Shown: one piece after another, positions 4,762 to 59,533 of the stretch
How the letters are laid out: each line of letters opens with the position of its first letter
How positions within the stretch are numbered: position 1 is the first letter of the stretch
DNA from: a virus
Lineage: Duplodnaviria; Heunggongvirae; Uroviricota; Caudoviricetes
Virus record (IMG/VR): IMGVR_UViG_3300042554_002914
Reading direction: 5' to 3' (one strand)
DNA: 64,000 nucleotides
Made by a program: the position numbers and the translations under genes
Notes under the pieces: generated by a model
The model's input: the letters and a program-made list of their open reading frames with translations, nothing else
What the model was told of the DNA's origin: nothing
The model's database searches: none

Positions 4762-7700
4762 TCAGGACAAGATGTTGGTGATCATAGCGCCAGAACCGAT
4801 AAGACCAGATGCACCGAGGCCAACCAAGTTAACCACACGTTCGATGGTGATTTCAGCACGCACGACACGGCGTTCGCGAATGTAGTACTCCAATTTGTTA
4901 TCGTAAAGGCTCTTTATCCTCTACATCTTTGTATTTCTACAAAGTTCAGACTATATCTTTGCCTTACATCCTTATGTAAGACATTAGGCGCTCGTGGAGT
5001 TTTCATCTGTTCTAGATTACTAACTCTAGTCGTTGAACGTTCGTTTTCTCCCGAAAACGCTTCGCTGCTGATTGCCATGGTTTGAAGTTCAAACGTTAGG
5101 GTCCCAGCAATTCACCTAATTTCTTTTTATGTCAGACCCCAGTAGTTAAGGACGGACAGCGGGTGTTCCTGTGAGTTGATCATTTTTGTTAGCGTAAAGG
5201 TTATTTATCCTTCACTTCTTTACATTTCTGCAAAGATCAGACTATATCTTCTTCCTGAAATTTCTTATCAATCCGGTAACATGACTATCAGGTAGATTTA
5301 AGTGTCGTGCGAACTTGCGAATTGCTGGTTTACCCAGCTCTACCCAAAGTTCAAACAATTCATCAAACCTAGACCATAACTCTTTTCTCGATCTGGGGTT
5401 ATTTATTCCCCTTACCTTTAGAGACAAGGTTTTCGAGATTTTCAGTTTATGCTCTTCAGTCATTTTTCTACCAGTCCAGGGATGATTTGACTTATCCTTG
5501 AAATGATTTTTATGCCAGTCACTGTTTTTTCTTTTAGCTTCTTCTGAGCTTCCTAATTTGGGGGAAATTAAACTAATCTCCCTTGAACCTAGCCCCCATT
5601 GTTTTGAACTTTTCCAAATTGCCCACCATAATTTTTTATTATGGGGTTGGGATAAACTTAAAAGTAAATGGGCTATGTAGTGTTCTCTCCGGGTCAGCAT
5701 TACTAGGTTTGATACTTCATCATTCCCTCCACAACAAATAGGAATAATGTGATGTTTTTCAAGCCCATTTTTGCTTCCCCTTCGTTTGGGGATTGGCCGA
5801 AGTAAAAGTAAACGTGATGTGATAAGATTCCAATACCACTTTTCCCATTTATTAAGAAAGTGACATTCTATCAGGAGTGGGGCACTCGTGGATGGGTTAT
5901 TATTTTCGGTATTCACCATCTAGTCGTTGAACCTTTTGACTACAACTCTATTATAGCATAGAGTCCGAAATAGTCAACTTGGCTGCTGATTACCATAGCT
6001 TTCAAACTTTCGTTTGAAGCCGTAGGCTTCCCAGCAATTCACCCCATTGATCTGCGGATCAGGCAGATAATTTGACGTTACCGTCAAACCACGCATTCAA
6101 CTCGTTTAAAAGAAACGATGTTATTAACATACGTGTAACTGAAGGCCGGAGTCGCAGCATTAGCACCACCCGCAGGCATGATCGAATCAGAAGGGCCGTT
6201 GGGGCTGTAGAACAGGAGGATGCCATTGGCGGGGAAGACAGGCTGCAAGGAGCCGTCGTTGGCCAAATAACGCCCTTCAGCTACGCGCAGGCCACGCTCA
6301 AGACCGAAGTAGCGAGCGATGACATCTGTGTCGATGCTATTGGCGGAGGTGTACTTGATACGATCAAGGATCGCTTCGTTGGTCAGCAAGAGGTCGAAAA
6401 CCGAAGTTCCAAGAACAGCGGAGTTCGGACGAATGCCGATCTGGTTGGCAACAGCACGCTTCAGGGTCAGGATGTCCTCAATGGGATTAGAGGTTGCACC
6501 AGACCATGCGGCAGGGCCAGTGGCTGTGCCATAAGCGGTGTTGAAGGCGGTCCAGGTTGTAAAACCAAGACCAGTTTGTGAGCCAGGAGTCCCATTGTAG
6601 GGCTCGTATGGATTGTAGCTGCCAGTCACTGAAACAGCTTGAGCAACGGTGTACTCGTAGCTGTTCATTCATTATGTTATCGCGAGGGCTCTTTATCCCT
6701 TGCTTCTGCATGTTTCTATGCAGTTCAGACTATATCATCGTTTTGTAAACAAAACGTCAGGCGCTCGTGTCAGCTTCATTACTGTTCTAGTAGTATGCTG
6801 TTAGTCGTTGAACGTTCCGTCAATCCCTTGACGGCTTCGCTGCTGATTACCATAGCATCAAACTTTCGTTTGAAACCGTAGGTTTCCCAGCAATTCACCC
6901 AATTTTCTAAATGAGATTAATCTCATAGGGCCAATGTGTTTAGCCTAGACATCGCGTTGCGAGTCTCGATGGCGCGTAGCATTTGTTAACTCAGCGGCTC
7001 TTTATCCACTGATTCATTACCTTGTCGTTGGTAATGTTCAGACTATATTATTGCCCCACTATGTACACGATTACTGTACTTTGTAAGACATTGGGCGCTC
7101 GTGTCAGCTTCATTACTGTTCTAGTAGTATGCTGTTAGTCGTTGAACGTTCCGTCAATCCCTTGACGGCTTCGCTGCTGATTGCCCACGCGGGGGTTCCA
7201 GCAATTCACCCAATTTATAGTGGACCTACGCTGCGATCGAAATCGTTCGTAAAAAATAATCCACTTGTGCAGGACCTTCTCCTGCGTTTTCGATTCAATA
7301 ATGTTATCGCAAAGATTTTATTCTATGCTTCTTTACATTTCTGTAAAGTTCAGACTATATCTTCACCCCTGTTTTTCTTTCTTAGCTTAGCCATATGCTC
7401 ACGGGCAATCTGCCTATGGGTTTCAGACTTTTCTTTATCCGCCCAGTACTTTTTGGCGGACTCACTTCTCTTTTCCTTTTCCTCTTCAGTTTGAACCCTT
7501 CCTCTATTAGCTTCGTGAGCTTTTTTAAGTGTTTTTTCGGGCAGGGATTTACCCATCTTGGTTTTACTAAGTCTTTCTCGCATTTGCTTGGACTTAGGTC
7601 TTCCTTTCTCGGCTGCCCCCGGGGCAATACCGAATGAGGTCTTTTGTAGGGAAGTAGCTAAAATAGATGTACGTGGTCGGTAGGTAATGGCGCCTTCTCC

Positions 7701-9530
7701 GCATTTAACTCCCAACATCCTTCTAACTGCATACCAGTGTTTTACTGAGTTAGCACCTTTCGCAAGGAGGACATGGGCTATGAAGTGTTCTCGGATTGTT
7801 AGTTTTACTCTGTTTCCTTTGGAGTTATCCCCACCGTCACACTTAGGTATGATGTGATGGACGTGGTATCCCCTTTCCTTGGAGATTCCTCTATACTTCC
7901 TGGAGGAGCAGAGTTCGTGGTACCATTTTAACCATTTGTTAGGGTGCTGGGCGCTCGTGGATGGGTTATTATTTTCGGTATTCACCATCTAGTCGTTGAA
8001 CCTTTTGACTACAACTCTATTATAGCATAGAGTCCGAAATAGTCAACTTGGCTGCTGATTGCCTTGTGTTTCAGAGAAGTCACTCCTGAAACCGTCAGGG
8101 TTCCCAGCAATTCACCCAGTTTTTCTATCAGTTTTTCAACTGACGGAGGCTATCGATCTAACCTCTTCAGGCAATTCCCAAGCCACTACTTCTTGTTCAA
8201 GAGCGTAGGGCTCAGAGTCGTAACGGCTCTGTACATACGGAATGTTAGTCCCGTAAGCACGGCGGAAGTCGTTAATAGCAAATTGTTCCTTCAATTATGT
8301 TATCGCAGGGGCTCTTTATCCCCCACTTCTCTTTGTTTCCAAAGAGTTCAGACTATATCATCGTTTTGTAAACAAAACGTCAGGCGCTCGTGGAGTTTTC
8401 ATCTGTTCTAGATTACTAACTCTAGTCGTTGAACGTTCCGTCAATCCCTTGACGGCTTCGCTGCTGATTACCATAGCATCAAACTTTCGTTTGAAGCCGT
8501 AGGCTTCCCAGCAATTCACCCAATTTTTCATAACCCCTCACGGAGTTAAGCGGCATATGGAATACCGAAGCGCAGGATACGTCCTGCACGAGTTGGCGTG
8601 TCTACCACCGGTGCTATGAATAATATACAAAACTTAACGTTTTGCTCTGCATGTTTCCATGCAGTTTAGACTATATCATCATCTTTGCCTAAGCAAAGAG
8701 TCGGGCGCTCGTGGAAAGATTATTCTTGGGTCAGTCACTTTCTAGTCGTTGAACCTTCTTACTTCACTCTTATTATAGCAACAAGAGACCCGAAGTAAAC
8801 TTGGCTGCTGATTGCCTCTTTTGCGTAGCAAAAGTAAGGTGTCCCAGCAGTTCACCCGATTATTCGACAGGGGTCACCCCCTGAAGGAACCTCATTGATT
8901 CGCAATGTTGGTAGACGGTAGCATGAAACCTTGCGCGAGGGTGGTGAGACATTTGTTAACGTAGAGGCTCTTTATTCCCTACCTCTCTTTGTTTCCAAAG
9001 AGTTCAGACTATATCATCGTTTTGTAAACAAAACGCCCGGCGCTCGTGGAGTTTTCATCTGTTCTAGATTACTAACTCTAGTCGTTGAACCTTCCTTTTC
9101 TCCCGAAAAGGCTTGGCTGCTGATTACCATAGCTTTCAAACTTTCGTTTGAAGCCGTAGGCTTCCCAGCAATTCACCGGATTTTCTTTGTTAAAAACAAA
9201 GCCACTCCTTTAAATGGGCAATATGTTATCGCAAAGGCTCTTTATCCCTTGCTTCTACATGTTTCCATGTAGGCCAGACTATATCATCATCCTATAACTC
9301 CCATGCTGAGGAGTCAAGGAGCTGGGCGCTCGTGGAGTTTTCATCTGTTCTAGATTACTAACTCTAGTCGTTGAACGTTCCGTCAATCCCTTGACGGCTT
9401 CGCTGCTGATTGCCTCTTTTGCATAGCAAAAGTAAGGTGTCCCAGCAATTCACCCAGTTTTCTGCCATCATTAAAATGACAGGGACCCTAATTAATCCAC
9501 ACCTGCGTAGGTCTGTTGTAGATTCATCAT
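4762..9530 (-). CDS. Major capsid protein, 351 aa, 10 exons: 9530-9495, 9218-9214, 8949-8898, 8620-8564, 8291-8161, 7295-7259, 6979-6942, 6669-6131, 5180-5149, 4890-4762
   Basis: Exons sum to 1056 nt in one stop-free frame MMNLQQTYAGVDPILTTLAQGFMLPSTNIANFIAPVVDTPTRAGRILRFGKEQF...NPIEDILTLKRAVANQIGIRPNSAVLG...GSGAMITNILS*; VDPILT and G.RPN motifs and position after protease/decoration genes fit an HK97-fold MCP. Confidence 0.9.
4891..5148 (-). mobile_element. Group I intron 9 of MCP gene (258 nt, ORF-less)
   Basis: P GAATTGCTGGG, Q AATCAGCAG, R TTCAACGACTA, S AAGATATAGTC; 5' exon ends in U, intron ends in G. Confidence 0.9.
5242..5919 (-). CDS. Intron-encoded HNH homing endonuclease with NUMOD3-like tail
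   Basis: HHIIPICCGG...NLVMLTRREHYIAH motif; HPWTGRKMTEEHKLKIS repeat. Confidence 0.9.
   Translation of the reverse strand: MVNTENNNPSTSAPLLIECHFLNKWEKWYWNLITSRLLLLRPIPKRRGSKNGLEKHHIIPICCGGNDEVSNLVMLTRREHYIAHLLLSLSQPHNKKLWWAIWKSSKQWGLGSREISLISPKLGSSEEAKRKNSDWHKNHFKDKSNHPWTGRKMTEEHKLKISKTLSLKVRGINNPRSRKELWSRFDELFELWVELGKPAIRKFARHLNLPDSHVTGLIRNFRKKI
5950..5977 (-). promoter_or_regulatory. Sigma70-type promoter inside intron 8, upstream of HNH ORF
   Basis: TTGACT-N16-TATAAT with extended -10 TG, about 30 nt before ATG 5919. Confidence 0.7.
6670..6941 (-). mobile_element. Group I intron 7 of MCP gene (272 nt, ORF-less)
   Basis: P/Q/R/S; IGS GGCC pairs with exon GGCU; CAUU pairs with 3' exon AAUG; terminal G. 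Confidence 0.9.
6980..7258 (-). mobile_element. Group I intron 6 of MCP gene (279 nt, ORF-less)
   Basis: P/Q/R/S; IGS GUCCAC pairs with GUGGAU; GCGUAG pairs with 3' exon CUACGC; terminal G. Confidence 0.92.
7350..7988 (-). CDS. Intron-encoded HNH homing endonuclease with NUMOD3-like repeats
   Basis: HHIIPKCDGG...NRVKLTIREHFIAH motif; KGRPKSKQMRERLS and MGKSLPEKTLKK repeats. Confidence 0.9.
   Translation of the reverse strand: MVNTENNNPSTSAQHPNKWLKWYHELCSSRKYRGISKERGYHVHHIIPKCDGGDNSKGNRVKLTIREHFIAHVLLAKGANSVKHWYAVRRMLGVKCGEGAITYRPRTSILATSLQKTSFGIAPGAAEKGRPKSKQMRERLSKTKMGKSLPEKTLKKAHEANRGRVQTEEEKEKRSESAKKYWADKEKSETHRQIAREHMAKLRKKNRGEDIV
8019..8046 (-). promoter_or_regulatory. Sigma70-type promoter inside intron 5, upstream of HNH ORF
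   Basis: Identical to the intron 8 copy: TTGACT-N16-TATAAT. Confidence 0.7.
8292..8563 (-). mobile_element. Group I intron 4 of MCP gene (272 nt, ORF-less)
   Basis: P/Q/R/S; IGS GCCG pairs with CGGU; terminal G. Confidence 0.9.
8621..8897 (-). mobile_element. Group I intron 3 of MCP gene (277 nt, ORF-less, apparent terminal A)
   Basis: P/Q/R/S; IGS GUUC pairs with GAAU; AUGAG pairs with 3' exon UUCAU; frame requires ...ATATTA|TTC. Confidence 0.85.
8950..9213 (-). mobile_element. Group I intron 2 of MCP gene (264 nt, ORF-less)
   Basis: P/Q/R/S; IGS GUGG pairs with CCAU of the micro-exon; terminal G. Confidence 0.9.
9219..9494 (-). mobile_element. Group I intron 1 of MCP gene (276 nt, ORF-less)
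   Basis: P/Q/R/S; IGS GUCC pairs with GGAU; begins with in-frame TAA; terminal G. Confidence 0.9.
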
Positions 9531-22653: not shown

Positions 22654-25599
22654 CTAAATGAGTCCTTTCTGGATTGAGTCATACCGGAAAGTTAGCTTAC
22701 TGACAGCACCCAATTCAAATAGTTGAGTCATTGAGTATTCAACCCCAGGTGGTTCATCACCCCCAGACTGATTGGATGGAGTTACCGTATTCTCTTTTGG
22801 GGACTTCCGGAGCCTATCATCAATGGCAACCGAGGAGAAAAACGCACGGCTCAATGGTAATTCGGGTATTTCCATCGCGTAGTGGAATAAACACCAAGTG
22901 AAAAGGTGGGCAATCTGGAATAACACGGCAAACTGCTCTGCGTATTTTTCCGGTGTCATAAAATGCAGTTCATCATGGATGCTAATTATGAATCGGTAGG
23001 GGATCTTAAACTCTTCGGCCAGCCATGCCACGGCAGTTAAGGTGATAGACAGGATTTCGGACCCTGAAGCTTGAATTGCCCAGTTGGTCCTCCCCGTCTT
23101 AAAATCATTGCCGACTGCAGATGGCATCATGGCCGTTGAGATTTTTGTCCCCAAACACGGCAACCGGGGGGTCCCTGGCCCCATGGAAATTCTTTCCATC
23201 ATATTGAAAGCACCTGAGTCTGATCCACCTTCGTATTTGCCGAACCTTAAGACCCCCTTCTTAGACGCAATAGCTTTAAGGGCAAAAGTTTTGACCGCAT
23301 CTTCGTCTTTATCGGGGAAGGTCATTCGGATTGGGTTACTAAGGGCTCTGACGCTCCCGCCATACAAGGTAGCAAATCCTACAATCTTGGCCAGGTCTCT
23401 AGCTATTTTAAGCATAGTGTCTTTTTCCTTATCAATTGGAGACACCCAGTAGCCATCACGGGAGCGGCAATCATCGCTGTCTTCAGGTTTTTGCTCATAT
23501 TTATAGCAAATCCCCAGGGTCTTATCCCAAATTAGACCATCATACAATTCCGGGAAGATCGCTCGGGCCAATGCAGTGTGAGGATCAGTACCATTCTCTT
23601 TAGAACCAGAAAGCACGTTATACCCCATGGGCGAACACCCAATGAAACCGCCTTCCCATTTATCACTATAGATAGACGCAATCTGCATCTCTTGGCCGTC
23701 ATAGTCCGCACTAATGATTTTCCACCCCTCCGGGGCCTGTACACGGGTCTTAAGCTCGGTTCCGATGCGCCAGCTCTTGGTAGAGCACATGGTGGCCATA
23801 AGGCTCTCTACGACCCTACGGGTGACGGTTCCGTGGCAGACGATCTCTGGCAGGGTAACGAGGTTAGGTTTTCCCAGGGGGTTGGTGGCCCCCATGACAA
23901 TACGGCTTTTAACTCGGCTGCGAACTGATGTCCAAAAACTAATGGCATTAGCAATTTCCAGTGCCCTTTTTGCCTCGGGTAAGTCACTACTTAGTCTTCC
24001 AACTTCCATGTGAGTAACGAACTCTTTAGAGAATAGGCCGCCTACGTTTTCGCCGGGTTTCTTAGGGTGTGGGATTCTATCCAGGGTGCCGTCTCCCGTA
24101 GTAAAACACCAACCTTGTCCATCTTCCCATATGATGGGGGTGCCTTCCCATTTTAGTTTCAATAGGAAATGCGATAGTTTGCTTTTAACACCAATCTCCT
24201 TATCAGGGTCCTTCTTATAGGGCCTCATCCAAGTGGGGACCCATGCGTAGACACCCTTGATAGACTTCACTTCCCAATCTAATTGGCGAATCCACGGGTC
24301 TTTTGACACCCATTTACTTGCCTCTTTGACCCCAATTTCCTTTGTTTCGTGGCTATCTACTATTTCCTTCCATGAATTGAAAGTATCCCATAGCAAAGTT
24401 TTACAAAGACCGGTCATTTCCTGGTTATGGCTGTTATAGACTTCTTCAGCCCCTTGCACCCATTCAAACCAGTTGTCCACTAGCGGCACCACAGACCCAT
24501 TCAGGTGGTAATGCCCGCAAAGCCCCACCATTGATGGTGTACTATCAAGGTATTTTGGCCATAGTGCCTGGAATAACTCTGAAGTATAATAAGCGTCCTT
24601 AATGGCGTAATCAACTGTCTCGGCTAGTACCTTATTGATTTCGGAAAGCGTATCAGCGGTGACAAAAATGTTCCTAATTTCCTTGTCGGAATCTGATAGT
24701 GGCTTTACATCGCCATCGTCAAAGAAAAATTCTTTTGCCCGTTGAACATGGAAGTTGTATGTTTTAACTAGGGAGTTTGTGCTCCCCCTGTCAAGCCATT
24801 CCGGAGAATACTTAAGTTTCCGCTTCTCATCATCATCAAGCAAATCAAAGTCCTTTTCAGCCAGCGCATAAAGCCACCTCTGACCTGATGCTAAGCCTGA
24901 TACGCCAACGTGCGCTGACAGGGTGTCAAAGTAGAAATTTTCCGGTTTGGTAAAATCTAGCGAATAACCCTCTTGGGCCCTCACACGGTCATAGGATATA
25001 TTGTGGCCAATGACAAGCCTGTCAGTCCCAATTGGAATAAGTTTAAATTGATCCCAATCATTTTGGGGAATATCAAGGTCAATCAGCTCGGCGGCTAACC
25101 AAATATAGGCGGCCCTATCACTTAGAGCAGTTCCAATAATGGGAAAGGCCCCACCTTTAACGAAAGTTTCCGTGTCGAATGTAAATACTTCTTCCTCGGG
25201 GTAGGGTACTTTTCTAGTTTGCCATTGCTTGTTGGGGCCATCCCCGATAAGCTCATACCGTGTCCACCCCGGTTGAAATACTAAATCGTTGATTGACGGG
25301 ATCTTTGGTAGGGCACATTTGGCAAATTTATTGCCTAGTTCCTTATAGCGTCCAACTTGATTTTCTGCAATCTTTTCAAAGTGGTCGCGGATATTGTTAG
25401 CCTTTAGGTTAGGCAGGGGGACTGGCCCATCATAGATGCTTTCGGGATAATCAACGGGGGCCTCAATCCCAAATTTCCTCAAAAGGGAAACGGCCTGGTC
25501 CTTTTGCTTGCTATTCATTTCGGGCCTATAGTCAGATCCAAAAATCTTTAGGTGCAAGTCATCGGACAAGACCGGGTAGCCAAGGGCAGTAGTTTTCAT
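22654..25599 (-). CDS. Family A DNA polymerase, mitochondrial Pol-gamma-like
   Basis: Exo motifs FDTE, IGHNISYDRVR, DTLSAHVGVSG, YAIKD; GTVTRR, RIGTELKTRVQAPEG, ADYDGQE, RDLAKIVGFATLYG, NWAIQASG, ISIHDE. Confidence 0.9.
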   Translation of the reverse strand: MKTTALGYPVLSDDLHLKIFGSDYRPEMNSKQKDQAVSLLRKFGIEAPVDYPESIYDGPVPLPNLKANNIRDHFEKIAENQVGRYKELGNKFAKCALPKIPSINDLVFQPGWTRYELIGDGPNKQWQTRKVPYPEEEVFTFDTETFVKGGAFPIIGTALSDRAAYIWLAAELIDLDIPQNDWDQFKLIPIGTDRLVIGHNISYDRVRAQEGYSLDFTKPENFYFDTLSAHVGVSGLASGQRWLYALAEKDFDLLDDDEKRKLKYSPEWLDRGSTNSLVKTYNFHVQRAKEFFFDDGDVKPLSDSDKEIRNIFVTADTLSEINKVLAETVDYAIKDAYYTSELFQALWPKYLDSTPSMVGLCGHYHLNGSVVPLVDNWFEWVQGAEEVYNSHNQEMTGLCKTLLWDTFNSWKEIVDSHETKEIGVKEASKWVSKDPWIRQLDWEVKSIKGVYAWVPTWMRPYKKDPDKEIGVKSKLSHFLLKLKWEGTPIIWEDGQGWCFTTGDGTLDRIPHPKKPGENVGGLFSKEFVTHMEVGRLSSDLPEAKRALEIANAISFWTSVRSRVKSRIVMGATNPLGKPNLVTLPEIVCHGTVTRRVVESLMATMCSTKSWRIGTELKTRVQAPEGWKIISADYDGQEMQIASIYSDKWEGGFIGCSPMGYNVLSGSKENGTDPHTALARAIFPELYDGLIWDKTLGICYKYEQKPEDSDDCRSRDGYWVSPIDKEKDTMLKIARDLAKIVGFATLYGGSVRALSNPIRMTFPDKDEDAVKTFALKAIASKKGVLRFGKYEGGSDSGAFNMMERISMGPGTPRLPCLGTKISTAMMPSAVGNDFKTGRTNWAIQASGSEILSITLTAVAWLAEEFKIPYRFIISIHDELHFMTPEKYAEQFAVLFQIAHLFTWCLFHYAMEIPELPLSRAFFSSVAIDDRLRKSPKENTVTPSNQSGGDEPPGVEYSMTQLFELGAVSKLTFRYDSIQKGLI

Positions 25600-27517: not shown

Positions 27518-28576
27518 TCACTCTGGGTTTTCTCTAACTTGTTGGATTCTTTGCTGGGCGATGTCGAGGTACGATTCCTCCATTTCAATGCCAATAAAGT
27601 TGAATCCCTCCAGTAGGGAAGCCTTTCCAGTTGTTCCAGAGCCTAAGAATGGGTCAAGTACGGTACCACCGGGCGGCGTAATTAAGCGGCACAAGTAACG
27701 CATTAAATTTGTTGGTTTGACTGTGGGGTGATTGTTGGTTTCACCATTGAGACCTTCGTTTCTGTCTTTTTTATTAGCTTTGGCGCAGTAGAAGAACCGG
27801 GCGGCGCTGCCCCCGTTGTCGTCGTGGCCACGCACTGTGGATTCACCACCGTACACGCCATAGGCGTTTGATTTGCCCTTGCCCGTGCCACGATGAGCAG
27901 CTTTAGCCGGACCCGTCTGTGGAAACAACCCCACCACCTCGTCGCTGCCATCCGTGATCAGGTTAGCGGGCCATCTACCGGTGAGCCCATCGCCGGTCCT
28001 GGTTCCGCGTTCCATGCCATAGCTGCCATAAACCTTGTTCTCGCCGCCATAAGGGCGCCCAAGTCCGTCATTCGTCCCCACCCTGCACCCATCAATGTTG
28101 ATAGCCCCGGTGCCGTGCTCCAGCACGTTTGCGGCCACGGTGCCCTCTGAGATGGGCTTGCGGGCCATGGTGATCGGCTCTAGGGCGGGCTTTAAGGAGC
28201 CTCCCCAGCCATCACGCACAGTCTCACCGTTGCTGTCCTTGATGTAGCCCACCTTGTTGAATCCACTTCCGTAGACCCACGCAATCATATCACGAATCTC
28301 AAACCCCGCATCCTCAATCCGCACCGCCATCCGGTGCTGCGTGCGCGTGCCAGCAAATGACAGTAAATGGCCACCAGGCTTCAGCACCCGCAGGCACTCT
28401 TTCCAAATATCAACACTTGGCACATCATAGTCCCATTTTTTACCCATAAACGCCAGGCCATAGGGCGGATCAGTACAAATAGCATCGATACTATTGTCGG
28501 GCATTTCCTTTAATACATCAAGGCAATTGCCATGGTACAGTTGATAGCGGTCTTCGGAAACGTAAGGCTTAATCAT
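27518..28576 (-). CDS. DNA N6-adenine/N4-cytosine methyltransferase (beta class)
   Basis: TDPPY, HPTVKP and LDPFLGSGTT motifs. Confidence 0.93.
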   Translation of the reverse strand: MIKPYVSEDRYQLYHGNCLDVLKEMPDNSIDAICTDPPYGLAFMGKKWDYDVPSVDIWKECLRVLKPGGHLLSFAGTRTQHRMAVRIEDAGFEIRDMIAWVYGSGFNKVGYIKDSNGETVRDGWGGSLKPALEPITMARKPISEGTVAANVLEHGTGAINIDGCRVGTNDGLGRPYGGENKVYGSYGMERGTRTGDGLTGRWPANLITDGSDEVVGLFPQTGPAKAAHRGTGKGKSNAYGVYGGESTVRGHDDNGGSAARFFYCAKANKKDRNEGLNGETNNHPTVKPTNLMRYLCRLITPPGGTVLDPFLGSGTTGKASLLEGFNFIGIEMEESYLDIAQQRIQQVRENPE

Positions 28577-30633
28577 GGTAGTTTAATCTCATTTAGGTTT
28601 GCAATTTTAGCCCCTTTCGCACCGGGTTTCCCCAGCTTTACAGAAAGGTCAATTTTTGTTGGTTTTTTCTTTGTTGATACCCACTCGACGGTAAATGGTT
28701 TCTCCCCAAAATACATAAAGACGGCCCCTTCCGGCAACCATTGCTTGCCCGTGCTTGTGGTTCTACACAGGGTTTCACCATCCATGGCCATAGCCCTTAG
28801 TTGACCATCAACCATAAATACAGCCAGGTATTTGCGTCCCGAGACGTATGCTTCCGGTTTTGCAAGCACCACAGGTGAATACCCTGTGGAAATTACACCC
28901 TTAAACGAAGCAGGCACCTTCTTTAGCATTCCGTCCTCGCACACTAGGATTAGCTTGTCGGTAGACCCCATGGCCAGGCAACCCTTGGGCCCTTTAGACT
29001 GTTCAATCACACCTTTCTTCATGTCGATTTTTAAGAAACGTGGTTTTGCTATTGGGGTGGTGTCTGAGGGGGTAGTGGCCGGAGGGAGAGACCCTGCGTT
29101 GTCTACTTTGGACCGGACCCCTACGGCAACAGGAACATCAATCAAAGGGCTCCTGCGGGGGACCCCATATTGCTTGTTGATCCTAGCAAGTTCCTCCAAC
29201 ATGTATGACTTTCGGGCACTGACATTATTGGCTTTGTCCCCCACCAGGGACTCTAGCCTATTGATGTCAGCCAATAGCTCATTTTTCTCACAAGACATCA
29301 AATCAAAGTCTAGGCACGTTAATTGCCGCAACCTCATTTCTAAAATGGCATCAGCTTGTTGCTCGGTGAATTTAAGCGGTGCTGACATTAGGGACTGCTT
29401 GGCTTCAGATTTGCCATTTGCGGCACGAATGCGCTTAATGACTAGGTCCATACGGTCAATAGCCTTTAGGAGACCATCAACGATGTGTAATCTTTTGTTT
29501 TTTGCCTCCAGTTCATGTTCAAATTTAACATCAAGCCGATCCAATCTCCATTGGACCCATCGTTGGATGATTTGTACCGGTGATAACTCAACGGGCTTAA
29601 ACCCATCGATAACCAAGGTTTTAGCTGAGTATTTGCAATCAAGGTCTGTATATGTGTATAGCAACTGCTTTACCAAATTAATATCAGCACCAGGTTTGAG
29701 GACCACCACCAGCCTATCCCCACTAATATCACTTTCATCTGTGATTTCGGCGATCCCTTCAATACGTCCTTTTTCTAACTCACTCTTGATCTGCTCACCA
29801 AGTTTCTCTGGATTGGTGCCAGGTGGCAAACAAGTGAAAGTCAAGGTGGATCGATCCCTGGCTTTTCCGCCCCTTTTCTGAATACCAGTCTCAACACAAG
29901 CCACGCAGCGTATTCCCCCGATTCCAGTACGGGTATAAGCATCTAGTTGCTCGTCTTGGACGATTTGGGTGCCAGTTGGGAAATCGGGAATTAGAGATAG
30001 GCTGGCTTTTTTTATATTATCAAGGTGGGCCTTTTCGGTAGGGGCATCCTTGCAAATTAACTTAATGGCTTCTACGATGGAGCGTAGACTGTGGGGAGCC
30101 AAACGGGTAGCAAAACCCACGGCAATTCCTGAGTCACCGTTTAGCAAAACGGTTGGCAAAGAAGTATTAAACCTGATGGCCTCCCGCTTACTGCCATCAT
30201 AGTTTGATTTAGTTTCCCACACTTCCCGGTCTTGTAAAAGAAGTTCCACTGCGGAAATTCGTAGTCTATTTTCTAGGTACCTTTCTGCTGAGGGGGAGTC
30301 AACTGTGCTTCCAATATTTCCATGACAATCAATCCAAGGGACATTATTGTTCCAAGGAGTAGCCATGTTAATGAGGGCCCCGTATGCAGAGCCATGGGGA
30401 TGGTAATAGGCACTAGTTAGGCCCGTAGTTCGGGCACACTTTACATACGGTTTATTCGGAAGCAATCCCTCTTCAATCATTGTCTGAAGGATGCGTCTTT
30501 GAACTGGCTTTAGCCCATCGCAAATGTCCGGTATCGATCTCCCGATAAGCACGGCCATACTATAGCTCAAATAGTCTTCCTTGAGCTGATCGACGAGATT
30601 GACTTCTGTGATTTTTGGCCTAGTTTTAGTCAT
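28573..30633 (-). CDS. gyrA: Type IIA topoisomerase subunit A (GyrA/ParC-like)
   Basis: DGLKPVQRRIL, YHPHG, ERY catalytic Tyr, LLNG.SGIAVG.AT, PDFPTG, QADAILEMRL. Confidence 0.88.
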   Translation of the reverse strand: MTKTRPKITEVNLVDQLKEDYLSYSMAVLIGRSIPDICDGLKPVQRRILQTMIEEGLLPNKPYVKCARTTGLTSAYYHPHGSAYGALINMATPWNNNVPWIDCHGNIGSTVDSPSAERYLENRLRISAVELLLQDREVWETKSNYDGSKREAIRFNTSLPTVLLNGDSGIAVGFATRLAPHSLRSIVEAIKLICKDAPTEKAHLDNIKKASLSLIPDFPTGTQIVQDEQLDAYTRTGIGGIRCVACVETGIQKRGGKARDRSTLTFTCLPPGTNPEKLGEQIKSELEKGRIEGIAEITDESDISGDRLVVVLKPGADINLVKQLLYTYTDLDCKYSAKTLVIDGFKPVELSPVQIIQRWVQWRLDRLDVKFEHELEAKNKRLHIVDGLLKAIDRMDLVIKRIRAANGKSEAKQSLMSAPLKFTEQQADAILEMRLRQLTCLDFDLMSCEKNELLADINRLESLVGDKANNVSARKSYMLEELARINKQYGVPRRSPLIDVPVAVGVRSKVDNAGSLPPATTPSDTTPIAKPRFLKIDMKKGVIEQSKGPKGCLAMGSTDKLILVCEDGMLKKVPASFKGVISTGYSPVVLAKPEAYVSGRKYLAVFMVDGQLRAMAMDGETLCRTTSTGKQWLPEGAVFMYFGEKPFTVEWVSTKKKPTKIDLSVKLGKPGAKGAKIANLNEIKLP

Positions 30634-33610: not shown

Positions 33611-34723
33611 TTACCCCAAGACGTTCAAATCGGGATACAAACTCAAAAGCTCCTCCTTCGAAAGAACATCATACTCATCTTCCGGTTGCCAGATAATCTC
33701 AAGGGCGACTAGGTCATCAGGTGTGATAGATCCTAGGGCTACCAGATTTGACTTTAGGCCCTCATGTGAGTCAGATGGCCTTAGGTTAAGATCCCCGTTC
33801 GTAACTACCAGGACATTCACAAGGATGTATTCGTTGTCTTGGGTTTTTTCGTGAGCCTTTTCCTTACTCTTTGAGAGACGACCGTCAACGTTCGTCAAAG
33901 TTTCTTCCGACGCTCGGGAACGCTCTTCCATGGAGAACTGGTTAAAGAGATCTTCCGCATTGTCAATGGACTCCCTGTTCTTATCACTCCAAGCGTAGAT
34001 GACCTTATCAGGGTGCCGGAGAAGAGCAAGGGTTGTTTCTTGTAGGATCTTGGCAAGGCCGTATGAACTGTCGGTATCTCCTTGTTCGGCCATCCGAATT
34101 AGGTCAGATTGAATGTCTTTGGCTGACGCAAGTAGGGCCACTCGTTGACGCACTACTGTGAGTTTCTTATACTTTTCCTTTTGGGTGCTTAACCACGGGC
34201 CTACAAAGTCTTCCCACCCTCCGCACAAAAGAATGCCTGCAATAATTACCACACCCATTGAAGCAAGCAGAGTCAAAAGAACCACCGGATTGGCAGGTTG
34301 TTGACTGACTGTGGTCACCCGCGAAGGCAAGGAGTATGGGATAGCCGGTGCAACATTTGGAGTCAAGTCAGGCATGACGATGATGTTAGTGCTCGAATGA
34401 CTTGGGGGGTTGTAAGAGGGTCTGGGGACAGGTGAAGGAGTGTATGTTCTCGGTGCAGAGTAACTATGGCTGGGACGGCTGATACTTGGGGAGCTGGGGC
34501 GACTATAGCTAGGGGAAGGGCTACGACGGCTGTAGCTCGGGGTGCTAGGACGACTATAGCTCGGCCTACTATAGCTCGGGGAGCTTGAGCGGCTGCGAAA
34601 GCTACTACCGCCGATGCGACCAGCAGATGCAGCAAAAGCGGGGGACGCCGTCAATAGCATCGCAACCGTGAGCGTCAGAATTATTGTCTTGAGTGATTTG
34701 GTGTTCATGGGTTTCATTTTCAT
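33611..34723 (-). CDS. DUF1517 / FLAP1-like membrane protein
   Basis: Signal peptide, GRIGGSSF, one TM helix, VALLASA..IQ.DL, LQETTLALLRHP, FNQFSMEERS, EIIWQP...LSKEELLSLYPDL. Confidence 0.85.
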   Translation of the reverse strand: MKMKPMNTKSLKTIILTLTVAMLLTASPAFAASAGRIGGSSFRSRSSSPSYSRPSYSRPSTPSYSRRSPSPSYSRPSSPSISRPSHSYSAPRTYTPSPVPRPSYNPPSHSSTNIIVMPDLTPNVAPAIPYSLPSRVTTVSQQPANPVVLLTLLASMGVVIIAGILLCGGWEDFVGPWLSTQKEKYKKLTVVRQRVALLASAKDIQSDLIRMAEQGDTDSSYGLAKILQETTLALLRHPDKVIYAWSDKNRESIDNAEDLFNQFSMEERSRASEETLTNVDGRLSKSKEKAHEKTQDNEYILVNVLVVTNGDLNLRPSDSHEGLKSNLVALGSITPDDLVALEIIWQPEDEYDVLSKEELLSLYPDLNVLG

Positions 34724-43061: not shown

Positions 43062-43307
43062 TTAAGATTCAAATAGGGTAATTTGATCAGGGTCAGCAAG
43101 CATGGCCTTTGGTGCTTTTACTTTTTCCGAAATTAGTTGCCGGTTAATCTCATCACACCATGTTTTATAAGGGTAATACTCCCTCAACCCAAACGGATAA
43201 GCCTCCCGGAGTTTGCTGCGGAGGATTTTCATGTCGGTAGTTCCAACTTCGGAGATAACACGGGAGATTATCGGAGCGGCTCGCTCTCGCCAGGTTAGGT
43301 ATTTCAT
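43062..43307 (-). CDS. Conserved hypothetical protein
   Basis: LREAYPFG.R..YPYK.W..E. Confidence 0.6.
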   Translation of the reverse strand: MKYLTWRERAAPIISRVISEVGTTDMKILRSKLREAYPFGLREYYPYKTWCDEINRQLISEKVKAPKAMLADPDQITLFES

Positions 43308-44473
43308 TGTAGGGTGAATTTATAAATTTCTTTTTTGGAGAGCCTAATGATTTGATTGTTTAGGGTTTCCACTGAGGGGACGATCGTGGTGTCATCCGAT
43401 ACCTTAATTCCGGACAAAACGACAGACCCGGCTCTGATTTTACGTCTGGCATCGCTAGTGCTTTTTACCAAGTTGAGTGTTTTAAGCAGGTTGGCTAGTG
43501 GTATGGGGAATGTAATGTCATTGAGAAGGGCGGTTGGCACGTTGCTGTCCGTAGGATCTGCCAGGCCAGAAAAGACGATGGACTCAGCACTCTGTTTGGC
43601 ATCTAAGGCTTTGTCCATGCCGTGAAAGGTCGCTGTAACTTCGATTGCCATTTGCCGTTGCTTTTCACGGGGGTTGGTAGGGAAATCCCCCGGCTCGCAA
43701 TCAGTAAGTAAAGTGATGAACTCATTGACGGCACTATCGGGAATTTTCTCCAGTTTGGAAAACATGTGGAGAGGGTGCTCGTTAATCCCGATGGTATTCC
43801 CAAGGCTTTTTGACATCTTTTGGTGGCCGTCGGTACCCACAAGAATGGGCATTAGTAGCCCGATTTGTTGCACTTCCGAGCCAAGTCCTCTTTGGATGGT
43901 TCGTCCGACACTGATGTTGAATTTCTGGTCAATGCCACCTAGTTCTACATCGGATTGGACAACAAAGCTATCGAAACCTTGCAACAACGGGTACATGAAT
44001 TCGTGTAGGCTAATTGGTGTTTCGTTTTTTAGACGGTTGGAAAAATCTTGCTTAGCCAGTAGCTGCTGCACAGTAATTAGAGACTGGAGCTTGATGATGT
44101 CGTTGAGTTGTAGCGATGCTAAGTGGGTGGAATTAAATATGATTTCGCATTTTTCTATGTCAAGGAATTTTCCCATAGTATCCAGAAAGGACTGCCCATT
44201 GGCGCTCACTACATCAGGGTCAAGTTGCGGGCGAGTTGTGTTTTTACCGGTTGGATCTCCGATCCTGGCAGTGAAATCACCAATAATTACAACCGGAGTA
44301 TGGCCATCTTGCTGGAAGGCACGGAGCTTTCTCAGAAGCACAGAATGCCCCAGGTGCAAAAAATCTGAAGTCGGATCGAATCCAAGCTTGATGCGTTTTG
44401 GTTGTGATAGGAATTGGTTTAGGTTGGTGGCAGGTAGTACATCAACGATGCTGCTTTGTATGGGTCTTATCAT
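43304..44473 (-). CDS. tyrS: Tyrosine--tRNA ligase
   Basis: KLGFDPT..LHLGH, YPLLQGFD, ELGG.DQKFN, KMSKS, C-terminal S4-like domain. Confidence 0.95.
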   Translation of the reverse strand: MIRPIQSSIVDVLPATNLNQFLSQPKRIKLGFDPTSDFLHLGHSVLLRKLRAFQQDGHTPVVIIGDFTARIGDPTGKNTTRPQLDPDVVSANGQSFLDTMGKFLDIEKCEIIFNSTHLASLQLNDIIKLQSLITVQQLLAKQDFSNRLKNETPISLHEFMYPLLQGFDSFVVQSDVELGGIDQKFNISVGRTIQRGLGSEVQQIGLLMPILVGTDGHQKMSKSLGNTIGINEHPLHMFSKLEKIPDSAVNEFITLLTDCEPGDFPTNPREKQRQMAIEVTATFHGMDKALDAKQSAESIVFSGLADPTDSNVPTALLNDITFPIPLANLLKTLNLVKSTSDARRKIRAGSVVLSGIKVSDDTTIVPSVETLNNQIIRLSKKEIYKFTLQ

Positions 44474-58663: not shown

Positions 58664-59533
58664 CTATCGTGTTGTTTCGCCGTAGTCATCGCCGTAGTCG
58701 TCGGTGGCATGATATAACTCGGTGGTAGCATGGGACCAACTTAACTGATCATGGGACCCATTGGCATCATCTAAAAGGCTACAAAATACAATTTGCCGCC
58801 ATCTTGATACTAGCATATCTGCGTATTGCTGTCGGGTAGGGGGGTTAGATTGGGGGTCGTTATTTTCGTACAGACCCAATGCCCAGGCATCGTTAAGCTC
58901 GACTAGGCAATACCTGCCTAAATCACACCTCCATCCGATGTCCACCGTATATGCCCCTGGGGCACCATTGCCTTCCAATTCTTTCATTATGGCTTCGACC
59001 AACCCGAAGTCGGGTTCAGGGCATTGCATGTTTGAATCATCGTATCGAGACCAACCCTGGACTTTACCACCACCTACGAAGTCTTGAACATAGAAGCGAA
59101 ACTCAGCCCCAAATGGTACGGCTTCAGAAATCCAAACTGGGGTGTCATTCGGTATGGAATCCGATGTCCCCATATCAAGGTGCCCCTTCACATTTCCAGT
59201 AAATGACTTTATCTCAATGGGTTTGATGAAATCGGTTAGGGTCGCCTCACCATAGGTGCCCCTTCGAATAGTTCTCATTAGGAATTTGTCCAGATCACCA
59301 TCGCAAATCCCATAGGAAAAATCATCAGGTAGCCGGATACCGACGTGGTCACCATATGCCTTGACAAACTCAACTGAGCCAACTGGGATATATCGGATTT
59401 TTGCTTCTTGGGGGTCTAACTTTGTTAGTTCCGCCAATGAGCAATACCTGATAGGGTAACATGAAAAGCTGCAGGCTATTTTTTCTGTCGGTAGTGGCCC
59501 ACCGGCTTGGAGTAGGAATGTTGGGTTTTTCAT
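58664..59533 (-). CDS. ATP-grasp domain protein (DUF4343/R2K-like)
   Basis: PVGSVEF, FIKP..IKSFTG, EFRFYV, YTVDIG, LVELNDAWALG. Confidence 0.75.
   Translation of the reverse strand: MKNPTFLLQAGGPLPTEKIACSFSCYPIRYCSLAELTKLDPQEAKIRYIPVGSVEFVKAYGDHVGIRLPDDFSYGICDGDLDKFLMRTIRRGTYGEATLTDFIKPIEIKSFTGNVKGHLDMGTSDSIPNDTPVWISEAVPFGAEFRFYVQDFVGGGKVQGWSRYDDSNMQCPEPDFGLVEAIMKELEGNGAPGAYTVDIGWRCDLGRYCLVELNDAWALGLYENNDPQSNPPTRQQYADMLVSRWRQIVFCSLLDDANGSHDQLSWSHATTELYHATDDYGDDYGETTR

What the first reader, a model, noticed from the sequence alone, without database searches (positions are those of the whole stretch)
4762..9530. Major capsid protein gene interrupted by nine group I introns
Seen: nine segments of 258-950 nt each carry the ordered group I core elements (GAAYTGCTGG, AATCAGCAG, TTCAACGACTA, A[C/T]ATAGTC-type S). 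Each follows an exonic U that pairs with a G in an internal guide. Removing them joins 10 exons (36, 5, 52, 57, 131, 37, 38, 539, 32, 129 nt) into a 351-aa frame. Introns occupy 3713 of 4769 nt. Known: phage group I introns mostly occur one to a few per gene, typically in DNA-metabolism genes. Inference: this organelle-like intron load in the most abundant virion protein gene is exceptional and invisible to normal gene callers.
Basis: partly seen in the sequence, partly recalled or inferred. Interest (0 to 1): 0.97.

Follow-up and report, generated by a model that had tools for sequence, protein, structure and literature searches.

The report
Phage capsid gene with nine introns
The only major capsid gene of a roughly 280-kb lake-water jumbo phage is cut into ten pieces, one just 5 bases long, by nine self-splicing group I introns; lake RNA data show relatives' copies of six of these introns removed exactly as predicted, and this is far more introns than published for any phage gene I could find.

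Summary
Nine group I introns lie on the minus strand between 4891 and 9494. Rfam scores eight above its threshold and the ninth, which carries an endonuclease gene, at 47 bits. A close variant of the joined protein folds as an HK97-type capsid protein.

A complete 279-kb relative has 13 introns in its only capsid gene. Across the clade I count 16 insertion sites and 0 to 13 introns per gene.

Contigs from lake RNA libraries carry the uninterrupted gene. Two of them match, 1056 of 1056 bases, the joined exons of an 11-intron DNA contig. One RNA contig shows a circle junction of intron 8.

Intron 3 ends in A rather than the usual G, yet its junction is exact in RNA contigs.

I rate this an extreme new variant of a known kind. 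Published phage genes have at most about three or four interruptions; Faustovirus (12 introns) and fungal mitochondrial genes are the nearest analogues.

The scan found this clade before on other DNA (a six-intron relative), and a ten-intron capsid gene in an unrelated soil phage.

The parts
9495..9530 (-). Exon 1 (36 nt, ATG at 9530; MMNLQQTYAGVD)
   Evidence: Matches residues 1-12 of the S-CBWM1 capsid protein.
9219..9494 (-). Intron 1 (276 nt, no ORF; CDS site 36)
   Evidence: RF00028 85.9 bits. P1 is GGAU/GUCC and the intron ends in G. Orthologues sit at the same site in L015, L045 and L055.
9214..9218 (-). Exon 2, a 5-nt micro-exon CCCAT (Pro plus two bases of Ile)
   Evidence: Supplies the 'PI' of the conserved VDPILTT motif. 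RNA contigs carry ATGGG (plus strand) between 8949 and 9495. The same arrangement is present in L015, L045, L055 and L050.
8950..9213 (-). Intron 2 (264 nt, no ORF; site 41)
   Evidence: RF00028 97.4 bits. P1 is CCAU/GUGG. Its orthologue is removed in RNA contigs of the L017 strain.
8898..8949 (-). Exon 3 (52 nt)
8621..8897 (-). Intron 3 (277 nt, no ORF; site 93), which ends in A instead of G
   Evidence: RF00028 94.3 bits. P1 is GAAU/GUUC and P10 is UUCAU/AUGAG, 5 bp. The 8620>8898 joint is exact in four RNA runs. The terminal A recurs in L015, L017 and L045, while other strains end in G at this site.
8564..8620 (-). Exon 4 (57 nt; FIAPVVDTPTRAGRILRFG)
8292..8563 (-). Intron 4 (272 nt, no ORF; site 150)
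   Evidence: RF00028 85.8 bits. P1 is CGGU/GCCG, read by hand. The RNA joint lies at 8291>8564.
8161..8291 (-). Exon 5 (131 nt)
   Evidence: In relatives this stretch is split further by introns at CDS sites 160, 192 and 273.
7296..8160 (-). Intron 5 (865 nt, carries an HNH ORF; site 281)
   Evidence: RF00028 hits at 7817-8170 (56 bits) and 7331-7465 (32 bits) are its two halves. P1 is GAGGU/GCCUC, with a compensatory variant GAAGU/GCUUC in L042. The RNA joint lies at 7295>8161.
7350..7988 (-). HNH homing-endonuclease ORF (212 aa) inside intron 5
   Evidence: phrog_655 'homing endonuclease', E 3e-24. A promoter-like site lies at 8046-8019.
7259..7295 (-). Exon 6 (37 nt)
6980..7258 (-). Intron 6 (279 nt, no ORF; site 318)
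   Evidence: RF00028 55.7 bits. P1 is 7 bp (AGUGGAU/GUCCACU) and P10 is 6 bp. The 6979>7259 joint appears in four RNA runs.
6942..6979 (-). Exon 7 (38 nt)
6670..6941 (-). Intron 7 (272 nt, no ORF; site 356)
   Evidence: RF00028 86.7 bits. P1 is GGCU/GGCC and P10 is 4 bp. The RNA joint lies at 6669>6942.
6131..6669 (-). Exon 8 (539 nt, the core of the capsid protein)
   Evidence: phrog_1005 'major head protein' E 1e-23 and PF03864, 36.8 bits against a cut-off of 22.9. No strain of the clade has an intron here.
5181..6130 (-). Intron 8 (950 nt, carries an HNH ORF; site 895)
   Evidence: RF00028 47.2 bits across the insert. P1 is CACGU/GCGUG. An RNA contig joins 5181 to 6126, a circle junction.
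5242..5919 (-). HNH homing-endonuclease ORF (225 aa) inside intron 8
   Evidence: phrog_655, E 3e-26. It is 50% identical to the intron-5 ORF over the N-terminal 100 aa. A promoter-like site lies at 5977-5950.
5149..5180 (-). Exon 9 (32 nt)
4891..5148 (-). Intron 9 (258 nt, no ORF; site 927)
   Evidence: RF00028 92.7 bits. P1 is GUCCU/GGGGU. Orthologues are present in L015 and L055.
4762..4890 (-). Exon 10 (129 nt, stop TGA at 4764-4762)
   Evidence: Its translation matches residues 300-341 of the S-CBWM1 capsid protein at 79% identity.

Best explanation
This is the single, functional major capsid gene of a freshwater jumbo phage of about 280 kb. The protein has the HK97 fold and belongs to the Phage_cap_E / Mu-like family. 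The nearest isolate is Synechococcus phage S-CBWM1.

The gene has been colonised by nine paralogous group I introns of the phage IA type.

The pre-mRNA is made late in infection (inferred). Each intron folds into its ribozyme. Four to seven bases at the end of the upstream exon, ending in U, pair with the intron's internal guide to form P1. A free guanosine attacks after that U, and the freed exon end then attacks after the intron's last base, joining the exons. These chemical steps are inferred from the family.

Removing all nine introns restores a 1056-nt frame. An in-frame stop codon 3-47 nt into every intron halts ribosomes before they reach the catalytic core.

Two introns carry HNH homing endonucleases behind their own promoter-like sites. 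These most likely cut intron-less capsid alleles of co-infecting relatives, so that repair copies in the intron together with neighbouring introns and flanking exon sequence. That would explain why close relatives differ at many of the 16 insertion sites.

What is shown: the intron anatomy, the colinear product, purifying selection on the joined frame, joined exons in RNA libraries, and presence/absence polymorphism between relatives. What is inferred: self-splicing without helper proteins, the homing mechanism, and the timing of expression.
For: Ribozymes.
- Nine RF00028 hits, all on one strand.
- RNAalifold on the seven short introns recovers P3, P4, P5, P6, P7.1/7.2, P8, P9 and P9.1, and 27 of 52 pairs show compensatory double changes.
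- P1 pairing with a U.G wobble is present in all nine introns.
- Exon and guide covary between strains at sites 281 and 303.

Gene product.
- The spliced 351-aa product is colinear with the S-CBWM1 capsid protein.
- An AlphaFold model of the uninterrupted orthologue (pLDDT 87.8) matches 3bjq and the lambda, HK97 and P23-45 capsid proteins.
- The gene lies between the portal and protease genes and the tail-tube and baseplate genes.
- The complete relative G001 has only this one capsid locus.

Selection.
- pN/pS is 0.03-0.11 on the joined frame across strains with 0-13 introns, and every joined frame is 352 codons with one stop.

RNA.
- Four lake metatranscriptome runs hold contigs with joints at all nine predicted boundaries.
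- L094 and L096 are 1056/1056 identical to the joined exons of the 11-intron DNA contig L017. L014, the same record as L094, matches L017's flanks at 100% and 99.9%.
- The exact uninterrupted protein is on record in only four assemblies: three consecutive JGI samples and one Logan run. The Logan contig's length equals that of an RNA-run contig laid.
- All six DNA assemblies at 95% identity or more carry 9-13 introns.
- An RNA contig shows a circle junction of intron 8.

Mobility.
- The same intron occurs with and without an endonuclease gene at sites 9, 41, 93, 273, 281, 303, 318, 356 and 895.
- 19 of the 40 exon differences from L017 fall in exon 5, where L017 has three extra introns.

In-frame stops.
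Against: - No RNA data come from the window's own strain. The strain with matched DNA and RNA (L017) lacks introns at sites 36, 895 and 927, so splicing of introns 1 and 9 rests on anatomy alone, and splicing of intron 8 rests on the circle junction.
- RNA libraries can contain DNA, and intron-less capsid genes exist as DNA in more distant relatives at 78-90% identity.
- I could not confirm with the tools that JGI samples 3300012770/-772/-777 are metatranscriptomes.
- Intron 3 lacks the terminal G that the second splicing step normally needs.
- Contigs cannot give splicing efficiency.
- Self-splicing in vitro and endonuclease activity are untested.
Confidence: 0.92

Rival explanations
1. The introns are real, but the uninterrupted contigs in the RNA libraries come from DNA (or mRNA) of co-occurring intron-less strains. 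On this reading, splicing in this subclade has not actually been observed.
For: Intron-less capsid genes exist on long DNA contigs in relatives at 78-90% identity. The read-laying tool warns that DNA can be present in RNA libraries. The RNA contig L097 has no exact DNA match among the loci.
Against: L094 and L096 equal the joined exons of the 11-intron DNA contig L017 at 1056 of 1056 bases, and L014 (the same record as L094) matches L017's flanks at 100% and 99.9%; losing all 11 introns with no other change is unlikely. The uninterrupted exact protein is on record in only four assemblies, one of which matches an RNA-run contig in length. All six DNA assemblies at 95% identity or more are intron-rich. 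An intron-8 circle junction can only arise in RNA. In run X2 the exon contigs have depth 118-152, against 15-47 for intron contigs.
Confidence: 0.05
2. The gene is a decaying pseudogene overrun by mobile elements, and the virion uses another capsid protein.
For: 78% of the locus is intron. One intron lacks the terminal G.
Against: pN/pS is 0.03-0.11 on the joined frame, and the joined frames are intact in every strain. The complete 279-kb relative has no second capsid locus. Compensatory changes keep the ribozyme helices intact. Joined transcripts are present in RNA libraries.
Confidence: 0.01
3. The nine-intron arrangement is an assembly artefact, produced by collapse or chimerism across the repeated intron sequences.
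For: The introns share identical stretches of tens of bases. The window's own assembly is not held, and no other contig shows exactly this set of nine introns.
Against: All ten exons are present once, in order and in frame. Every one of the nine introns is found at the same site, at 82-100% identity, in independent assemblies. L015 and L016, from different samples, give identical 13-intron structures.
Confidence: 0.02

Closest known systems
Phage genes with several group I introns: Staphylococcus phage Twort orf142 (three introns; Landthaler & Shub 1999, as cited in PMC11878797) and Bastillevirinae DNA polymerase and terminase genes (up to three; PMC11878797)
   Same: The ribozyme type is the same IA-like phage kind; the nearest sequence matches are introns of Bacillus, Staphylococcus, Streptococcus, Clostridium and Lactobacillus phages. 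The endonucleases are HNH-type, ORF-less deletion derivatives occur, and each intron has an in-frame stop soon after the 5' splice site.
   Different: This gene has nine introns, and 13 in relatives, against at most three. That is one intron per roughly 80-120 coding bases. Exons can be as short as 5-10 nt. The target is a capsid gene rather than a DNA-metabolism gene. The host is probably a cyanobacterium, not a Firmicute.
Single introns in phage capsid genes: mycobacteriophage LittleE and lactococcal phage Tuc2009 (PMC3706429)
   Same: A group I-type intron sits in the most highly expressed virion gene and is spliced during late expression.
   Different: Those genes have one intron each. The LittleE endonuclease is LAGLIDADG-like and lies on the opposite strand.
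crAss-like Zeta-group capsid gene (cMAG OLRF01000054) and Jug gut jumbo phages (PMC7886860, PMC12880540)
   Same: These are metagenomic phages heavily infested with group I introns, and the capsid gene is among the targets. Splicing in the Jug phages was supported by metatranscriptome reads.
   Different: The crAss capsid gene is in five fragments, and up to 14 introns per whole genome was called unprecedented. Jug phages average 18.5 introns per genome, with genes split into two or three parts. Here 9-13 introns sit in one 1056-nt gene while the rest of the 64-kb window has none.
Faustovirus E12 major capsid gene (13 exons, 12 introns, five of them group I; PMC6247863)
   Same: A viral capsid gene with a two-digit intron load, short exons (13 nt and up), and endonuclease ORFs in two introns.
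   Different: Faustovirus is a eukaryotic giant virus with a double-jelly-roll capsid protein. Its introns average 1273 nt, seven of them are not group I, and its endonucleases are GIY-YIG. In the present gene all nine introns are one compact ribozyme family in an HK97-fold gene of a bacteriophage.
Fungal mitochondrial cox1 genes with many group I introns (from my own memory: Agaricus bisporus cox1 with about 19 introns); cyanobacterial 23S rRNA genes with multiple endonuclease-encoding introns (PMC1995217)
   Same: Many mobile group I introns are stacked in one conserved gene, with presence/absence polymorphism between strains.
   Different: Those are organelle or cellular genomes with much longer introns, and the mitochondrial introns often rely on maturases.

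Membership tests
Group I intron (Rfam RF00028) | Match to the covariance model at or above the gathering score | tested here: met
   Eight introns score 55.7-97.4 bits against a threshold of 50. Intron 8 scores 47.2 bits, with E 6e-10, across a roughly 700-nt ORF insert.
Group I intron (Rfam RF00028) | Conserved core helices P3-P9 kept by base-pair covariation | tested here: met
   RNAalifold on the seven ORF-less introns predicts P3, P4, P5, P6, P8, P9 and P9.1. 27 of 52 pairs show changes on both sides that keep the pair. The P7 pseudoknot cannot be predicted by that tool, but its two strands (GACUA / UAGUC) are invariant.
Group I intron (Rfam RF00028) | 5' exon ends in U, and that U forms a U.G wobble with the internal guide in P1 | tested here: met
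   Met in nine of nine introns (intron 4 read by hand). Exon and guide covary between strains at sites 281 and 303.
Group I intron (Rfam RF00028) | 3'-terminal guanosine (omega-G) | tested here: inconclusive
   Eight of nine introns end in G. Intron 3 ends in A in five independent assemblies (window, L015, L016, L017, L045), yet its junction is exact in RNA contigs. The family as a whole fits; intron 3 departs on this one feature.
Group I intron (Rfam RF00028) | Excision and exon ligation in RNA | tested here: met
   RNA contigs identical to the joined exons of L017 lack the orthologous introns at sites 41, 93, 150, 281, 318 and 356. An intron-8 circle junction is present. There is no strain-matched evidence for introns 1 and 9.
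Group I intron (Rfam RF00028) | Protein-independent, guanosine-dependent self-splicing in vitro | not testable with these tools
   This needs in vitro transcription and a GTP-labelling assay.
Subgroup IA (IA2-like phage introns) | Extra P7.1/P7.2 hairpins between P7 and P3' | tested here: inconclusive
   A 34-36-nt insert sits at that position in all nine introns and folds into a covarying hairpin. The nearest sequences are Firmicute-phage introns, many of which have been classed as IA2 (PMC11878797). I made no formal subgroup assignment.
HK97-fold major capsid protein (Pfam PF03864 Phage_cap_E) | Sequence match above the curated cut-off | tested here: met
   Exon 8 alone scores 36.8 bits against a cut-off of 22.9. 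It also matches phrog_1005 'major head protein' at E 1e-23.
HK97-fold major capsid protein (Pfam PF03864 Phage_cap_E) | HK97 fold of the full-length spliced product | tested here: met
   The model is of the uninterrupted orthologue from L014, whose CDS equals L017's joined exons (0.994 amino-acid identity to the window's spliced product). It has pLDDT 87.8 and pTM 0.86. Foldseek matches 3bjq at E 2e-23 and then the lambda, HK97, P23-45 and HFTV1 capsid proteins. The window's own spliced sequence could not be submitted to the fold tool.
HNH homing endonuclease | HNH catalytic motif and a family match | tested here: inconclusive
   phrog_655 'homing endonuclease' matches at E 3e-26 and 3e-24. 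Pfam HNH scores 17.6 and 16.5 bits, below the 21.4 cut-off. There is no PDB sequence match. Cleavage activity is untested.

The most novel reading that the evidence does not exclude
The capsid gene of this lake jumbo-phage clade is a battleground for a radiating intron family: at least 16 insertion sites, up to 13 occupied at once, and exons as short as 5 nt. On this reading the intron-borne HNH nucleases act as weapons between co-infecting relatives, as shown for one intron in phage PhiPA3 (PMC11620839). Within this gene sits a natural group I intron whose last base is A, not G, and which is still ligated accurately in vivo. That would show that a strong P10 can stand in for omega-G in the second splicing step.
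Probability: 0.35. Interest if true: 0.9.

Novelty: new variant of a known kind. Interest (0 to 1): 0.82.

Why it matters
- **Scale.** The known intron load of a phage gene rises from about three or four to nine here and 13 in a relative. The gene concerned must be expressed at the highest level late in infection, so nine ribozymes must all work on one short transcript.
- **Annotation.** Gene callers see only fragments. The protein databases hold many exon-sized pieces of this capsid protein, so the capsid genes of a widespread lake phage clade are mis-annotated.
- **Ribozyme mechanism.** The locus offers natural test cases: a 5-nt exon shared as substrate by two ribozymes, an intron ending in A that is still ligated, and nine paralogues with swapped peripheral modules.
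- **Intron mobility.** Closely related genomes differing at many of 16 sites are a natural experiment in intron gain, loss and co-conversion. They may also bear on intron-mediated competition between phages.

Tried and rejected
**Alternative boundaries for intron 3.** Model (b) puts the 5' site four bases downstream and the 3' site after CATAG. Model (c) puts the 5' site after ACAU and the 3' site after UUUUG. Both keep a terminal G and the reading frame. I rejected both: they give poor P1 pairing, lose the match to the homologue's ISNFIAPVV stretch, and RNA contigs join 8898 to 8620 exactly.

**Rfam's P1 for intron 1.** It implies a splice site 14 nt upstream (after ACCU). That breaks the frame and the match to S-CBWM1, so I rejected it.

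**First structure prediction.** A six-sequence alignment gave pLDDT 34 and was unusable. I repeated it with 116 diverse sequences.

**Spliced aligner on distant loci.** My aligner allows no small indels. On loci at about 83% identity or less that contain codon indels it reports spurious introns. For those loci I used only the nhmmer counts.

**Apparent sites 86/87, 881/884/889 and 71/75.** The first pair are artefacts of truncated loci. The others are single sites with ambiguous boundaries.

**Searches that gave nothing.**
- The window's own genome is not held.
- megablast of the locus against GenBank phages found only 63-71-nt intron-tail matches in Clostridium and Clostridioides phages.
- phmmer of the endonuclease against the PDB found nothing.
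- Pfam found nothing on the second intron-bearing gene of G001; PHROGs then named it a primase.
- Literature searches found no description of this clade or of a phage gene with nine or more introns, and nothing for the sample identifiers.

**Odd joints** (7182>9136, 9185>9521, 9207>9495). These are contigs of other paralogous introns that partly match, not splice events.

**Parts of the locus without RNA-contig cover.** I draw no conclusion from these gaps.
Full report
**The observation**

Rfam's group I intron model (RF00028) gives eight matches above its gathering score, at 55.7-97.4 bits. A ninth match scores 47.2 bits and spans a roughly 700-nt insert. Two partial matches are the two halves of intron 5. 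No other part of the 64-kb window matches the model at the gathering threshold.

**The exon model**

The introns make up 3713 of 4769 nt. The result is a 351-codon frame with one terminal stop. A spliced-alignment program that I wrote recovers the same blocks.

The product aligns end to end with the uninterrupted 341-aa major capsid protein of Synechococcus phage S-CBWM1 (NC_048106). Identity is 68%. The only gaps lie inside the large exon and none lies at a junction. The 5-nt exon CCCAT supplies the Pro and most of the Ile of the conserved VDPILTT motif.

**What the gene is**

- The 539-nt exon alone matches PHROG 1005 'major head protein' (E 1e-23) and Pfam Phage_cap_E above its cut-off.
- The neighbours are a Mu-type portal, a head protease, a tail-tube-like protein and a baseplate J protein.
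- I could not submit the window's spliced sequence to the fold tool. I folded the uninterrupted orthologue from locus L014 instead; its CDS equals the joined exons of L017, which are 0.994 identical in amino acids to the window's spliced product, and I used 116 diverse relatives as the alignment. The model has pLDDT 87.8. Its best structural matches are 3bjq, then the capsid proteins of HFTV1, P23-45, lambda and HK97.
- The nearest genome held, G001, is a complete 279,339-bp IMG/VR record with terminal repeats. It is syntenic with the window at about 86-98% identity over the pieces compared and has only this one capsid locus.

**The ribozymes**

The nine introns are paralogues, 52-82% identical in pairs. 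The P3, P4, P6 and P7 strands are invariant, while the peripheral hairpins are shuffled among them.

RNAalifold, run without any model, recovers P3, P4, P5, P6, a hairpin at the P7.1/7.2 position, P8, P9 and P9.1. 27 of 52 pairs are kept through changes on both sides.

Every 5' exon ends in U, and that U can form a U.G wobble within a 4-7-bp P1. Introns 3, 6 and 7 also have a 4-6-bp P10 directly next to P1.

Between strains, exon changes are matched by changes in the guide. At site 281 the pairing is GAGGU/GCCUC in most strains and GAAGU/GCUUC in L042. At site 303, three exon variants each have a fitting guide.

Each intron carries an in-frame stop codon 3-47 nt after the 5' splice site, always before P3.

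The closest sequences in GenBank phages are introns of Bacillus, Staphylococcus, Streptococcus, Clostridium, Listeria and Lactobacillus phages. This is the classical phage IA-type family.

**The endonucleases**

Introns 5 and 8 hold ORFs of 212 and 225 aa that match PHROG 655 'homing endonuclease'. They are 50% identical over their first 100 residues, and the first 13 residues are identical. Each ORF starts just after the 5' strand of P7 and ends inside the 3' strand of P7.

A near-consensus sigma-70-type promoter with an extended -10 box lies in P6, a short way upstream of each ORF. A weaker copy survives in the ORF-less intron 3.

**Relatives**

A search of IMG/VR with the large exon returned 80 loci. 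Counting introns with an HMM built from the window's short introns, and mapping them with my aligner, gave these results:

| Locus | Introns in the capsid gene |
|---|---|
| G001 (L015) and L016 | 13 |
| L055 | 13 (the aligner split one intron in two) |
| L017 | 11 |
| L050 | 11 |
| L045 | at least 11 |
| Relatives at about 82% identity | 1-6 |
| S-CBWM1 and a number of more distant members | 0 |

The union of sites is 16, at CDS positions 9, 36, 41, about 73, 93, 150, 160, 192, 273, 281, 303, 318, 356, about 887, 895 and 927. None lies in CDS 357-883. At the 15 sites with an unambiguous boundary the upstream exon ends in U.

Relatives have further micro-exons of 6, 8, 9 and 10 nt.

At nine sites the same intron occurs both with and without an endonuclease gene. 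The window's nine introns have orthologues, 82-100% identical, at the same sites in independent assemblies.

All joined frames are 352 codons with one stop. pN/pS against the window is 0.03-0.11.

G001 has three more group I introns, in a DNA primase gene.

**RNA evidence**

Fourteen lake or freshwater metatranscriptome runs hold part of the locus. I laid the contigs of four of them on the window. They show these joints:

| Intron(s) | Joint in RNA contigs |
|---|---|
| 9 | 4890>5149 |
| 8 | 5180>6131 |
| 7 | 6669>6942 |
| 6 | 6979>7259 |
| 5 | 7295>8161 |
| 4 | 8291>8564 |
| 3 | 8620>8898 |
| 1 and 2 | 8949>9495, with ATGGG (the reverse complement of CCCAT) in between |

These are exactly the predicted boundaries.

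The contigs come from other strains, so I asked which DNA strain they match.
- L014 (the same record as L094) and L096 are 1056/1056 identical to the joined exons of L017, a 127-kb DNA contig with 11 introns. L014's flanks match L017 at 100% over 2671 nt and 99.9% over 1216 nt.
- The exact uninterrupted protein is on record in only four assemblies: three consecutive JGI samples and one Logan run. The Logan run's 1357-nt contig has the same length as record 1 of the metatranscriptomic run X1.
- By contrast, all six DNA assemblies at 95% identity or more have 9-13 introns.

I read this as direct evidence that the orthologues of introns 2-7 are spliced in vivo. I could not verify the JGI sample type with the tools.

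For intron 8, one RNA contig joins the intron's last base (5181) to its fifth base (6126). This is the junction expected when the terminal G attacks near the 5' end of the excised intron and makes a circle. The four bases released, AUGU, can pair with the guide GCGU just as the exon's ACGU does.

Introns 1 and 9 have no strain-matched RNA evidence.

**Intron 3**

Intron 3 ends ...GUAUAUUA, so its last base is A. The same end is found in G001, L016, L017 and L045. Other strains' introns at this site end in G. L050 shares the 5' half of the intron and ends ...AAUUG.

The P7 helix, which forms the guanosine pocket, is the same as in the other eight introns. P10 is 5 bp and contiguous with P1.

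Because the L017 strain carries this A-ending intron and its RNA contigs lack it precisely, the intron appears to be ligated accurately without omega-G. I have no tested explanation; a strong P10 is my guess.

**The 5-nt exon**

P10 of intron 1 (CC/GG, possibly CCC/GGG) and P1 of intron 2 (CCAU/GUGG) use overlapping bases of CCCAU. The two ribozymes therefore cannot both hold this exon at the same moment. Either splicing order would still work on paper.

**How it most likely works**

See Best explanation. The homing and co-conversion part is inference. It is supported by three things:
- the presence/absence pattern between relatives;
- the occurrence of the same intron with and without its ORF;
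- the clustering of 19 of the 40 exon differences between the window and L017 in exon 5, where L017 has three extra introns.

**Comparison with what is known**

- Single introns in phage capsid genes are known: LittleE and Tuc2009 (PMC3706429).
- Up to three introns per phage gene are known: Twort and the Bastillevirinae (PMC11878797).
- crAss-like Zeta phages have a capsid gene in five fragments, and up to 14 introns per genome was called unprecedented (PMC7886860).
- Jug phages average 18.5 introns per genome, with genes in two or three parts (PMC12880540).
- The Faustovirus capsid gene has 12 introns, five of them group I (PMC6247863).
- I found no paper on this clade or on a phage gene with nine or more introns.

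Earlier notes of this scan report a six-intron relative of the same clade (e1-5381985, e1-5381997) and a ten-intron capsid gene in an unrelated soil phage (e1-5345991). I used them only as leads, and tested the clade claims myself.

**Verdict**

This is an extreme new variant of a known kind, with two mechanistic oddities worth bench work: the intron that ends in A and the shared 5-nt exon.

Noticed in passing
window 8019-8046, 5950-5977 and 8772-8799 (minus strand): Near-consensus sigma-70-type promoters (TTGACT-N16-TATAAT with a TG extension, 11 of 12 matches) lie inside the P6 hairpin of introns 5 and 8, upstream of the HNH ORFs. A 10-of-12 copy lies in the ORF-less intron 3, which looks like a derivative that has lost its endonuclease gene.
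   Followed up: partly
window 5181 joined to 6126 (RNA contig of run X1): A 309-nt RNA-library contig joins the last base of intron 8 to its fifth base. This is the junction expected of a truncated intron circle. The released AUGU can pair with the guide sequence as the 5' exon does.
   Followed up: partly
G001:20378-21454 (locus L013 1879-2955): The 279-kb relative has three more group I introns, in a DNA primase gene (phrog_25243). That region lies outside the window.
   Followed up: partly
window 8161-8291 (exon 5): 19 of the 40 exon differences between the window and strain L017 fall in this 131-nt exon, where L017 and G001 carry three extra introns (CDS sites 160, 192, 273). This looks like co-conversion of flanking exon sequence during intron homing.
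   Followed up: partly
window 22654-25599, 28573-30633, 27518-28576, 33611-34723, 43304-44473, 58664-59533: The window also encodes a family A DNA polymerase with a mitochondrial-type exonuclease domain, a gyrase/topoisomerase IV subunit A-like protein, an N6/N4 DNA methylase, a DUF1517 protein, a class I Tyr/Trp-type tRNA synthetase and an ATP-grasp (R2K) protein. None of them is interrupted by an intron, and the window has no tRNA genes.
   Followed up: no
loci L015-L092 (IMG/VR relatives): All 16 intron insertion sites of the clade lie in CDS nt 9-356 or about 884-927. None lies in the 539-nt central exon, which is half of the gene.
   Followed up: no
protein database hits P0122, P0131, P0147, P0222, P0261: Public protein collections hold many exon-sized fragments of this capsid protein, for example a 195-aa protein covering only the large exon. 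Gene callers have evidently mis-annotated the intron-split genes.
   Followed up: no
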